Made by a program: the position numbers and the translations under genes. From sequence record NC_005859.1: a DNA stretch of 64,000 nt; one strand, 5' to 3'. This stretch comes from Escherichia phage T5. This document shows, piece by piece, positions 41,432 through 41,503 of this stretch (positions are counted from its first letter, which is position 1; every line of letters begins with the position of its first letter). A model generated the notes under the pieces. It made no database searches. It saw only the letters and a program-made list of their open reading frames with translations, and was not told the origin of the DNA.

Positions 41432-41503
41432 TACCGACCGTAGGATTCGAACCTACATCTTCCACCAGTTACGGCTTGATAATACCGTTTATACTAGGTC
41501 GGC
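41432..41503 (-). tRNA. tRNA-like element, anticodon arm unresolved
   Basis: perfect T-arm GTAGG/TTCGAAT/CCTAC and 7-bp acceptor stem, but no encoded CCA and no canonical anticodon stem-loop found. Confidence 0.35.

What the first reader, a model, noticed from the sequence alone, without database searches (positions are those of the whole stretch)
41432..41503. tRNA-like element lacking an anticodon arm
A perfect T-arm (GTAGG/TTCGAAT/CCTAC) and 7-bp acceptor stem are present, but CCA is not encoded (unlike the other tRNAs here) and no 5-7-5 anticodon stem-loop could be placed. It sits at the edge of a ~580-bp non-coding region.
Basis: seen in the sequence. Interest (0 to 1): 0.4.

Follow-up and report, generated by a model that had tools for sequence, protein, structure and literature searches.

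The report
tRNA-shaped domain of phage T5 RNAX
The "tRNA without an anticodon" is real: it is a tRNA-derived, non-decoding, tRNA-shaped branch at the tip of a leader-trailer stem in RNAX, a 0.6-0.9 kb highly folded non-coding RNA of unknown function that T5-like phages carry at the edge of their tRNA gene cluster.

Summary
The window is phage T5. The element lies on the minus strand (41503-41432).

It is not chance and not decaying junk. About 500 T5-like phage genomes carry it. Compensatory changes preserve the acceptor, D, T and a short central helix, and the elbow nucleotides are invariant. The central loop is not an anticodon loop: it is 6 nt in T5 and 3, 4 or 20 nt elsewhere. tRNA software gives orthologues contradictory identities. 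Erwinia phage KEY keeps a canonical Pro-like arm, so the element descends from a tRNA.

The main new result is that the conserved 5' "leader" pairs with the 3' "trailer" in a 14-position helix (P1; 12 pairs counted, 99% paired, 7 with double changes). The tRNA shape is therefore an apical branch of RNAX, which GenBank annotates as a "stable RNA with unknown functions" and Rfam lacks. RNAX has about 16 covarying helices.

I infer that the element is a tRNA-mimic handle or processing site for RNAX. GenBank already annotates the locus as a pseudo-tRNA; the architecture appears undescribed. RNAX is dispensable in the laboratory.

The parts
41580..41608 (-). Sigma-70 promoter (TTGCTA-17-TATAAT), annotated 'promoter P16-17' in T5 record AY734508; drives RNAX
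40848..41566 (-). RNAX as annotated in GenBank (719 nt, from the start site to the 5' end of tRNA-Arg): 'stable RNA with unknown functions'. The conserved core runs from UAGUGGGG to AAAAAUAC and is 585-887 nt in 43 distinct variants.
41504..41539 (-). Conserved 36-nt 5' 'leader' AUAGUGGGGUGUGGAAAUCACUUAUGUAGUAACACU; conservation begins sharply here in all lineages
41510..41523 (-). P1 helix, 5' strand (leader -20 to -7)
   Evidence: 12 pairs, 99.4% paired, 7 with changes on both sides. Recovered independently by RNAalifold and by the MFE fold of T5 alone
41415..41428 (-). P1 helix, 3' strand (trailer ACUGGAUAACUGGU)
41504..41509 (-). Invariant internal-loop strand AACACU between P1 and the acceptor stem (U-1 lies next to G1)
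   Evidence: invariant in all lineages, including STG2, DU_PP_V and KEY
41429..41432 (-). Opposite internal-loop strand AAGA (discriminator A plus AGA); invariant
41432..41503 (-). The tRNA-shaped domain (72 nt): acceptor 41503-41497 / 41439-41433; D arm 41494-41479; central arm 41477-41462 (6-nt loop GUAACU); T arm 41456-41440; discriminator 41432
41398..41414 (-). Hairpin H1 (GCUUUUA-ACG-UAAAAGC), covarying
   Evidence: 6 pairs, 94% paired, 3 with double changes
41524..41527 (-). P0 helix 5' strand (GGAA in T5, CGAA elsewhere). It pairs with 41397-41394 (UUCC in T5, UUCG elsewhere), giving a three-way junction P0/P1/H1.
   Evidence: G-C to C-G flip
41394..41397 (-). P0 helix 3' strand
41533..41536 (-). 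Leader GUGG, predicted to pair with a conserved AACCAC block: proximal at 41372-41366 (favoured) or distal at 41080-41073
   Evidence: DU_PP_V ACGG:CCGU and KKP_3711 AUGG:CCAU are compensatory. Tentative.
40853..40890 (-). 3'-terminal 16-bp hairpin of RNAX with a UACG loop, 5 nt before tRNA-Arg
40773..40847 (-). tRNA-Arg(UCU) with encoded CCA; its RNase P site would define the RNAX 3' end

Best explanation
The element is a tRNA-derived domain that keeps the tRNA L-shape (acceptor/T-arm stack, D/T-loop elbow) but has lost decoding. It is not a free-standing gene. Its acceptor stem sits, via an invariant internal loop (AACACU/AAGA), on a 14-position helix (P1) formed by the conserved 5' leader and 3' trailer. 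This makes it the apical branch of the 5' arm of RNAX, a 0.6-0.9 kb multi-helix non-coding RNA. RNAX is transcribed from early promoter P16-17 and ends at tRNA-Arg.

Shown by covariation: the cloverleaf, P1, H1 and many further RNAX helices. Also shown: the absence of CCA and of any conserved anticodon, and descent from a tRNA (the KEY orthologue).

Inferred mechanism: the domain acts as a tRNA mimic that presents a tRNA-shaped handle on RNAX to host factors that read tRNA shape rather than the anticodon. These are RNase P, 3'-end trimming and CCA-adding enzymes, and T-loop and D-loop modification enzymes. The most concrete prediction is RNase P cleavage between U-1 and G1, because the substrate features are present: a 7-bp acceptor, a 5-bp T stem, U-1 and A73. 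After cleavage P1 would keep the pieces together. RNase P cleavage at tRNA-Arg would set the RNAX 3' end. The tRNA shape would thus serve the maturation, stability or partner recruitment of RNAX, not translation.
For: - Identity and annotation: the window is T5. The locus is annotated as a pseudo-tRNA in AY587007 and lies inside 'rnaX' in AY734508, AJ604531 and KM979354.
- Cloverleaf: 82.7% of cells paired against 26-45% for slid controls; 6 pairs have double changes.
- Wider set of 18 variants: acceptor 4:69 G-C/C-G, 5:68 A-U/U-A/U.U, 6:67 and 7:66 C-G/U-A. The T stem is paired in every one of the 18 variants, with 50:64 U-A/C-G and 51:63 A-U/G-C.
- U8, A14, G18, G19 and the T-loop UUC/A58 are invariant in 22 variants.
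- P1: 12 pairs, 99.4% paired, 7 with double changes; slid controls 31-44% for the whole tested structure. RNAalifold and single-sequence MFE recover P1 independently.
- RNAX: 94 pairs in 16 helices, 44 with double changes, 93.8% paired against 37-45%.
- No decoding identity: loops are GUAACU, UUCACC, GAGA, UAG or a 20-nt extension. ARAGORN calls are inconsistent.
- tRNA ancestry: the KEY orthologue has a 5-7-5 arm CUUCC-CUUGGGU-GGGAG and scores 50.2 bits on the Rfam tRNA model, yet sits in the same leader/trailer frame without CCA.
- Precedent: a 7-bp acceptor stem makes a tRNA-like Y RNA a substrate for RNase P and CCA addition (PMC4201824). mascRNA uses a leader-trailer extension of its acceptor stem for RNase P processing (PMC8457004).
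Against: - No expression or processing data were available here; RNase P cleavage is purely predicted.
- From established knowledge of bacterial RNase P, the enzyme prefers a single-stranded leader. Here only 6 nt separate G1 from P1, so cleavage could be poor.
- The domain is replaceable. STG2, HildyBeyeler and relatives keep the leader, P1 and the first three acceptor pairs but swap the rest for an unrelated ~47-nt hairpin structure. KFSSM lacks the D arm, and one metagenomic phage has a D-loop deletion.
- Most orthologues carry a G1.A72 and a U5.U68 mismatch.
- All of RNAX is dispensable in the laboratory: it is deleted in T5 st0 and lost in BF23.
- The 5' domain of T5 is not unusually stable on its own (z = -1.1).
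Confidence: 0.55

Rival explanations
1. Pure processing punctuation, like mascRNA. The only role of the domain is to be excised by RNase P and a 3' endonuclease. This cuts the primary transcript into a ~60-70-nt 5' RNA, a ~72-nt tRNA-like RNA and the RNAX body, and the excised piece has no function of its own.
For: Canonical RNase P substrate features are present: a 7-bp acceptor, the T arm, U-1 and A73. There is a leader-trailer helix, as in MALAT1-mascRNA. tRNA-Arg abuts the RNAX 3' end. M. smegmatis YrlA is cut by RNase P and receives CCA.
Against: The STG2-type phages replace the tRNA shape with a non-tRNA hairpin yet keep P1 and the loop unchanged. P1 therefore has a role independent of any RNase P site. 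The D arm, the elbow nucleotides and the central helix are conserved beyond what RNase P needs. GenBank annotates RNAX as one 719-nt stable RNA.
Confidence: 0.22
2. A decaying tRNA pseudogene with no function of its own, carried along inside a transcribed spacer.
For: It is annotated as a pseudo-tRNA. It has lost the anticodon loop and CCA. It is replaced, truncated or partly deleted in some phages. It is dispensable.
Against: Decay would not preserve four helices through compensatory changes across two subfamilies (Markadamsvirinae and Mccorquodalevirinae), nor keep U8, A14, G18, G19 and the T loop invariant. The distal stem of the extended arm also covaries: GGGG/CCCC against GGAGA/UCUCC.
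Confidence: 0.12
3. A decoy or sponge for host tRNA-directed factors. Candidates are defence nucleases or toxins that recognise the tRNA body or acceptor end, or Ro60/Rsr in the manner of a Y RNA. The domain would protect real tRNAs or disarm a defence.
For: T5 tRNAs are known to counter tRNA-targeting defences such as PARIS (PMC11464382) and retron Eco7 (Ec78) (cited in PMC10644984). The layout resembles D. radiodurans Yrn1: a stem formed by the 5' and 3' ends, plus a tRNA-like domain whose 'anticodon arm' has a 5-bp stem and a 6-nt loop. Most leaders contain GUCGAA, which matches the first six positions (GNCGAA) of the Y RNA GNCGAAN0-1G motif, though none shows its terminal G.
Against: No Y RNA family is hit in Rfam. 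T5 itself has GUGGAA with a compensatory partner change, which indicates a base pair rather than a sequence motif. No TROVE gene was seen in the flanks. Known anticodon nucleases need the anticodon loop, which is absent and variable. There is no experimental link.
Confidence: 0.08
4. A functional but unusual tRNA that is charged and used in translation.
For: ARAGORN calls tRNA-Ser(act). The Rfam tRNA score is above the gathering threshold. The KEY orthologue looks like tRNA-Pro(UGG).
Against: - The loop is 6 nt and has no U33.
- The loop length and sequence differ among orthologues.
- No CCA is encoded, whereas all 22 real tRNAs encode it.
- There is no long variable arm for Ser.
- 1:72 is G.U or G.A, and 5:68 is U.U in most orthologues.
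- The acceptor ends are tied into P1.
- T5 and KEY each have a separate canonical tRNA-Pro.
Confidence: 0.02

Closest known systems
GOLLD and ROOL RNAs (large 'ornate' phage/prophage RNAs; Rfam families)
   Same: Large size (RNAX core 585-887 nt) with many covarying helices. Phage-encoded and located in or next to a tRNA island. GOLLD sometimes carries tRNAs covalently in its linker region (bioRxiv 10.1101/2024.12.08.627333; PMC5737381). RNAX carries a tRNA-derived domain and is followed directly by tRNA-Arg. Function is unknown and the RNA is non-essential.
   Different: No sequence or structure match to either Rfam model at E<=10 (T5) or E<=1 (8 other RNAX variants). RNAX occurs in lytic T5-like phages of Enterobacterales. 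The embedded element is a non-decoding tRNA mimic on a leader-trailer stem rather than a normal tRNA. Multimeric cage formation is untested.
mascRNA in MALAT1 (and menRNA in NEAT1)
   Same: A tRNA-like cloverleaf with a degenerate, non-decoding anticodon arm is embedded in a long non-coding RNA. Its acceptor stem is extended by leader-trailer pairing (PMC8457004).
   Different: mascRNA is eukaryotic and nuclear, lies at the 3' end of its host RNA, and its RNase P/Z processing is proven. Here the element is near the 5' end, processing is unproven, and 6-nt/4-nt loop strands separate P1 from the acceptor.
Bacterial Y RNAs (YrlA, Yrn1)
   Same: A non-coding RNA with a tRNA-like D/T/acceptor module attached to a stem. 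Yrn1 has a 5-bp 'anticodon' stem with a 6-nt loop. The YrlA of M. smegmatis, with a 7-bp acceptor stem, is cut by RNase P and receives CCA. These RNAs are found in phages too (PMC4201824).
   Different: Y RNAs are 80-130 nt, lie next to a Ro60/TROVE gene and bind it. None of these features was seen here, and there is no Rfam hit. The GNCGAA-like motif is not kept in T5.
tmRNA tRNA-like domain and plant-virus 3' tRNA-like structures
   Same: Acceptor/T-arm mimicry without a functional anticodon.
   Different: Those have free CCA ends and are aminoacylated (tmRNA through G3.U70). Here 3:70 is C-G, no CCA is encoded, both ends continue into a helix, and ARAGORN finds no tmRNA.
Phage T4 'species 1/2' stable RNAs in the tRNA cluster (recalled from memory, not checked here)
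   Same: Small stable phage RNAs of unknown function, co-transcribed and co-processed with phage tRNAs.
   Different: They are much smaller, and no homology was examined. This is a lead only.

Membership tests
Functional tRNA (Rfam RF00005) | Cloverleaf with a 7-bp acceptor stem, T arm (UUCRANY loop), and D arm with G18 G19 | tested here: met
Functional tRNA (Rfam RF00005) | 5-bp anticodon stem with a 7-nt loop (U33, purine 37) and an anticodon conserved among orthologues | tested here: not met
   T5 has 3 pairs plus a 6-nt loop GUAACU. Orthologue loops are 3, 4, 6 or 20 nt. Rfam skips the arm. ARAGORN identities conflict. Only Erwinia phage KEY keeps a 5-7-5 arm.
Functional tRNA (Rfam RF00005) | 3' CCA (encoded by every other tRNA of this phage) and free 5'/3' ends | tested here: not met
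   No CCA is encoded, against 22 of 22 real tRNAs. The flanks form helix P1. Post-transcriptional CCA addition is not testable here.
GOLLD / ROOL large phage RNAs | Match to the family covariance model | tested here: not met
   No hit at E<=10 over T5 RNAX or at E<=1 over eight other variants
GOLLD / ROOL large phage RNAs | More than 500 nt, many covarying helices, phage-borne, beside tRNA genes | tested here: met
   94 pairs, 44 compensatory; tRNA island
GOLLD / ROOL large phage RNAs | RNA-only multimeric nanocage | not testable with these tools
   Needs cryo-EM or native gels of RNAX
Bacterial Y RNA (YrlA/Yrn1) | Ro60-binding stem with a GNCGAAN0-1G / GGUCCGA motif | tested here: inconclusive
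   GUCGAA matches the first six positions in most leaders, none has the motif's terminal G, and T5 has GUGGAA with a compensatory partner change. Motif definition from PMC4201824.
Bacterial Y RNA (YrlA/Yrn1) | Match to an Rfam Y RNA model; encoded next to a Ro60/TROVE gene; 80-130 nt | tested here: not met
   No Rfam hit. The neighbours are ORF076/077 and a band-7 protein. The element is part of a ~700-nt RNA.
tmRNA | tRNA-Ala-like acceptor (G3.U70) with CCA, plus a tag reading frame | tested here: not met
   ARAGORN finds no tmRNA; 3:70 is C-G in all variants
mascRNA-type processing element | tRNA-like fold inside a long non-coding RNA, with the acceptor extended by leader-trailer pairing | tested here: met
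mascRNA-type processing element | Cleavage by RNase P (5') and RNase Z or equivalent (3') | not testable with these tools
   Needs an in vitro M1/C5 assay or an rnpA(ts) northern

The most novel reading that the evidence does not exclude
RNAX is a previously unclassified family of large 'ornate' phage RNAs and the T5-like counterpart of GOLLD/ROOL. It is a 0.6-0.9 kb multi-junction RNA in the tRNA island whose tRNA-derived domain is a covalently attached tRNA-shaped hook. The hook might be used to dock to, or capture, tRNA-handling machinery or ribosomes, possibly within a higher-order RNA assembly. If so, the open question of what large phage RNAs next to tRNA genes do becomes testable in E. 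coli with a classical, genetically tractable phage.
Probability: 0.15. Interest if true: 0.85.

Novelty: new variant of a known kind. Interest (0 to 1): 0.58.

Why it matters
T5 is a model phage, and its tRNA region is under active study for anti-defence roles (PARIS, retrons, DRT9). GenBank has labelled this locus "pseudo-tRNA" or "RNAX, unknown function" for 20 years.

This analysis shows three things. The pseudo-tRNA is under structural selection. It is held on a covarying leader-trailer stem. It belongs to a large, richly folded RNA that is absent from Rfam and conserved in about 500 genomes. Together these turn an annotation oddity into a defined RNA family with a testable architecture.

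The analysis also explains why annotation pipelines give this locus contradictory tRNA names, and why spurious small ORFs are called across it. Finally, natural variants (domain swapped, D arm lost, canonical arm retained, whole RNA deleted) offer ready-made genetic comparisons.

Tried and rejected
- Literature: searches for T5 stable RNAs, RNAX or tRNA-like elements found nothing describing this element. Only context was recovered.
- Alternative hairpin ACGGU/GCCGU, which the MFE fold uses in place of the D arm: rejected because the pairing breaks in the Klebsiella and bux lineages.
- Local hairpins within the leader (GUGG-AAA-UCAC and similar): inspected by eye on the alignment and rejected as inconsistent. 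The leader pairs with the trailer instead.
- MFE fold of the full T5 RNAX: it does not reproduce the covariation-supported helices (z = -2.3), so I did not use it.
- Recent duplication of a T5 tRNA: no close paralogue. The best real tRNA under my model is tRNA-Pro at only 35.5 bits, against 100 for the element.
- Gene conversion from KEY's own tRNA-Pro: rejected because the anticodon arms differ.
- Synteny-based retrieval with ORF076 returned only close relatives.
- IMG/VR and metagenome pattern scans returned mostly complete or near-complete 104-124 kb phage genomes and otherwise short contig fragments, so they extended the host range no further.
- A functional link between the ORF076 YqeY-like protein and the tRNA-like domain: not supported by co-occurrence. 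STG2 keeps ORF076 without the domain, and Klebsiella phages keep the domain with an endolysin gene upstream. I left it as a lead.
- A second copy elsewhere in the window: none found.

Full report
**Identity of the window and check of the observation.** The window is Escherichia phage T5: it is 100% identical to AY587007.1, and window coordinate = record coordinate + 79. The element is on the minus strand, from 41503 (5') to 41432 (3'). Read as RNA it is GCCGACC UA GUAU AAACGGUA UUAU C AAGCC GUAACU GGUGG AAGAU GUAGG UUCGAAU CCUAC GGUCGGU A.

The T arm is perfect. The acceptor stem has 7 pairs, with G1.U72 as a wobble. The discriminator A is followed by AGAAC rather than CCA, while all 22 genuine tRNAs in the window encode CCA. 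No 5-7-5 anticodon arm fits.
- It is more than chance. The Rfam tRNA model scores 38.3 bits (E = 4.7e-6), but only by skipping the 18 central nucleotides.
- ARAGORN reports 'tRNA-Ser(act)'. On orthologues the same program reports Ser(act), SeC(tca), Ser(aga), Leu(tag), Pro(tgg) or nothing. GenBank records variously say pseudo-tRNA, tRNA-OTHER, tRNA-Ser, tRNA-Sec or tRNA-Pro. There is therefore no conserved decoding identity.

**It is a conserved tRNA shape, not decay.** Homologues occur in 488-527 phage records, essentially all from T5-like phages (Demerecviridae). Their hosts include Escherichia, Salmonella, Shigella, Klebsiella, Citrobacter, Enterobacter, Pantoea, Erwinia, Pectobacterium and Yersinia.

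- On 16 ungapped variants the cloverleaf is 82.7% paired, against 26-45% when the partners are slid. Six pairs have changes on both sides.
- A hand-registered set of 18 variants shows the following:
  - Acceptor stem: 4:69 G-C/C-G; 5:68 A-U/U-A/U.U; 6:67 and 7:66 C-G/U-A/U.G.
  - D stem: GUAU/UUAU, AGUU/GACU, GUCU/AGAC.
  - T stem: always paired, with U-A/C-G and A-U/G-C exchanges.
  - Anticodon-stem position: a helix with 29:41 G.U/A-U/G-C/C-G, 30:40 C-G/G-C and 31:39 C-G/A-U.
- U8, A14, G18, G19 and the T-loop residues that build the tRNA elbow are invariant in 22 variants.
- The cap of the central helix is free to vary: GUAACU (T5 and most others), UUCACC, a GAGA tetraloop, a UAG triloop, or a 20-nt extension whose distal stem itself covaries (GGGG/CCCC against GGAGA/UCUCC).
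- So the L-shaped body is under selection and the decoding end is not.

**It descends from a tRNA.** In Erwinia phage KEY the orthologue sits in the same flanks and also lacks CCA. It has a canonical arm CUUCC-CUUGGGU-GGGAG (U33, UGG, G37), scores 50.2 bits on the Rfam tRNA model, and is called tRNA-Pro(tgg). KEY also has a separate canonical tRNA-Pro with a different anticodon arm, so this is not a recent gene conversion. No T5 tRNA is a close paralogue of the T5 element.

**The main new result: the flanks pair with each other.** The conserved block is longer than the 72 nt.

- Conservation starts sharply 36 nt upstream (AUAGUGGGGUGUGGAAAUCACUUAUGUAGUAACACU, 41539-41504) and continues downstream (AAGAACUGGAUAACUGGUG...).
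- Leader positions -20 to -7 (41523-41510) pair with trailer 41428-41415.
  - The triplet next to the loop reads AGU/ACU in T5, AAU/AUU, GAU/AUC, AGC/GCU and AAC/GUU in other lineages.
  - Further in, C-G/G-C, U.G/U-A/C-G, A-U/C-G and U-A/C-G exchanges occur.
- Counted on 14 lineages, this P1 helix has 12 pairs, 99.4% paired, 7 with changes on both sides. For the tested structure as a whole, slid controls give 31-44%.
- RNAalifold on full-length sequences and the single-sequence MFE fold of T5 recover P1 independently.
- Between P1 and the acceptor stem lie two loop strands, AACACU and AAGA. Both are invariant in every lineage examined.
- After P1 comes a covarying hairpin, H1 (41414-41398). 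A short helix P0 follows (GGAA:UUCC in T5, CGAA:UUCG elsewhere, a G-C to C-G flip), giving a three-way junction.
- The leader's GUGG probably pairs with a conserved AACCAC block. The exchanges ACGG:CCGU in Pectobacterium phages and AUGG:CCAU in Enterobacter phage KKP_3711 are compensatory. The proximal block is favoured, but this remains tentative.

**The element is therefore a domain of RNAX.** GenBank records from the Ksenzenko laboratory annotate the whole stretch from the start site of 'promoter P16-17' to the 5' end of tRNA-Arg as misc_RNA 'rnaX'.

- The annotated lengths are 719 nt in T5 (window 41566-40848), 785 nt in Salmonella phage 5 and 636 nt in DT57C.
- A consensus promoter (TTGCTA-17-TATAAT) sits at 41608-41580. 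No ORF in the region exceeds 60 aa.
- The conserved core is 585-887 nt in 43 distinct variants.
- On 11 full-length sequences, RNAalifold predicts 94 pairs in 16 helices, 44 of them with compensatory changes. Pairing is 93.8%, against 37-45% for slid controls.
- Caveat: this structure was derived from the same alignment, and some mosaic regions are poorly aligned.
- A 16-bp hairpin with a UACG loop ends RNAX 5 nt before tRNA-Arg.
- No Rfam family other than tRNA matches any RNAX variant tested.

**Natural variants.**

- STG2, 1-29, BSP22A and HildyBeyeler keep the leader, P1, the loop and the first three acceptor pairs. They replace everything inside C3-G70 with an unrelated ~47-nt hairpin structure.
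- KFSSM replaces the D and central arms with one hairpin.
- One metagenomic phage has a D-loop deletion. Another combines T5-type flanks with the Klebsiella-type long arm, which shows modular exchange.
- BF23 has a chimera: the 5' two-thirds of the element is fused at the T loop to what looks like the 3' end of a CCA-bearing tRNA, next to an HNH endonuclease gene. RNAX and tRNA-Arg are gone (BF23 lacks tRNA-Arg according to PMC10644984).
- The viable T5 st0 deletion removes the whole locus.
- RNAX and its tRNA-shaped domain are thus dispensable in the laboratory. The domain is the commonest, but not the only, cap on P1.

**How it most likely works.**

- Shown: the fold, the embedding in RNAX, the lack of CCA and of an anticodon, and the tRNA ancestry.
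- Inferred: because selection keeps exactly the features read by enzymes that recognise tRNA shape, I think the domain is a tRNA-mimic handle on RNAX. Those features are the 7-bp acceptor stacked on a 5-bp T stem, the elbow, U-1 and A73.
- The most concrete prediction is RNase P cleavage 5' of G1, with P1 holding the products together, plus RNase P cleavage at tRNA-Arg to define the 3' end.
- Precedents exist. A Y RNA with a 7-bp acceptor stem is cut by RNase P and receives CCA (PMC4201824). mascRNA uses leader-trailer pairing for RNase P processing (PMC8457004).
- Points against: only 6 nt separate G1 from P1, the domain can be swapped out, and I had no expression data.
- Approximate probabilities:

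| Explanation | Probability |
|---|---|
| tRNA-mimic handle or maturation domain of RNAX | 0.55 |
| Pure processing punctuation | 0.22 |
| Functionless relic | 0.12 |
| Decoy for tRNA-directed or Ro-type factors | 0.08 |
| Real tRNA | 0.02 |

**Comparison with what is known.**

- In function it resembles mascRNA and the tRNA-like modules of bacterial Y RNAs. Yrn1 even has a 5-bp stem with a 6-nt loop at the anticodon position.
- As a whole, RNAX resembles GOLLD and ROOL. Those are large ornate RNAs of phages and prophages near tRNA islands, and GOLLD sometimes carries tRNAs in its linker.
- It is not a member of any of these families by covariance-model test. It lacks a neighbouring Ro60 gene. 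The Y RNA-like GUCGAA motif is not kept in T5 itself.

**Novelty and limits.** The locus is already annotated as a pseudo-tRNA or as RNAX, so its existence is known. I did not find the following described in the searchable literature or in Rfam: the covariation-supported cloverleaf, the leader-trailer helix, the nested 5' domain and the many-helix fold of RNAX. Older subscription-journal papers from the Ksenzenko laboratory could not be searched. I rate it a new variant of a known kind: a tRNA-like domain embedded in a long structured non-coding RNA. The covariation rests on about 20-45 distinct sequences from roughly 8 lineages. All functional statements are inference.

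Noticed in passing
window 40705-40779 and 41364-41435 (as annotated in AY587007.1) against the true positions 40773-40847 and 41432-41503: The tRNA-Arg and pseudo-tRNA features in T5 record AY587007.1 are both displaced by 68 nt from where the sequences actually lie. 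As a result the annotated tRNA-Arg overlaps the band-7 protein CDS.
   Followed up: partly
L013 (phage BF23, OR083247.1) 937-1005 and 1035-1718: BF23 carries a chimera. The leader and the 5' two-thirds of the tRNA-like element are joined within the T loop to ...CGGGGAGCCACCA, which looks like the 3' end of a CCA-bearing tRNA. The HNH endonuclease gene hegA (F-TflIV) follows directly. RNAX and tRNA-Arg are missing. This looks like a deletion by recombination between T-loop sequences.
   Followed up: partly
window 41081-41050 and 40985-40963 (minus strand): T5 RNAX contains the block AGUCACCUUGAC(U/A)UAAACUGGAA twice, about 95 nt apart. Most relatives (AKFV33, DT57C, Epseptimavirus) have it once, which accounts for T5's ~80-nt longer RNAX (686 against ~604 nt core).
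   Followed up: partly
window ~30284-30644, 31808-31979, 32838-33083 (minus strand; AY692264 coordinates minus 3): The T5 st0 record annotates six further misc_RNAs between the tRNA genes (RNAIII, RNAI, RNA1, RNA2H, RNAIV, rna2), all without a stated function. My model of the tRNA-like element gave only a weak T-arm-like partial hit in rna2 (32971-32985, 12.3 bits).
   Followed up: no
window ~29177-29252 and 37089-37163 (minus strand): ARAGORN missed two tRNAs. AY692264 annotates a tRNA-Gly at the first position. The second lies next to tRNA-Ser(GCU), where DT57C annotates tRNA-Ile(CAU), and it gave a weak hit to my model (15.6 bits).
   Followed up: no
window 41617-42051 (minus strand; ORF076) and 42051-42221 (ORF077): The gene just upstream of the RNAX promoter belongs to PHROG 1460 'tRNA amidotransferase'. 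Its orthologues in AAS21 and bux score just below threshold on Pfam YqeY (the GatB-tail-like domain, which I recall as tRNA-binding); T5's own copy has no Pfam hit. ORF077 is DUF7616. Co-occurrence with the tRNA-like domain is not strict.
   Followed up: partly
L014 975-1112, L003 876-1061, L010 1092-1682, L011 1038-1739, L012 1038-1795: Many GenBank records call small 'hypothetical protein' CDSs across RNAX or on its opposite strand. They overlap the tRNA-like domain and covarying helices, are not conserved between lineages, and are probably spurious.
   Followed up: partly
L070 (Salmonella phage KFSSM) 311-793; L008 (bux) 416-898: In some Epseptimaviruses a 160-aa ORF, annotated as a homing endonuclease in KFSSM, is inserted between the ORF076 homologue and RNAX. 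This adds to the HNH genes scattered through the tRNA region. The RNAX 5' boundary may be a recombination or homing hotspot.
   Followed up: no
window 41571-41544 (minus strand): A 10-bp hairpin (AAAUUAGAGA...UCUCUAAUUU) lies between the -10 box and the conserved leader. AKFV33 keeps it through compensatory changes (GAGA/UCUC to GAUG/CAUC). It overlaps 'repeat c copy 3' of AY587007 and straddles the annotated RNAX start (41566), so it is unclear whether it is a 5' RNA hairpin or a DNA-level promoter element.
   Followed up: no
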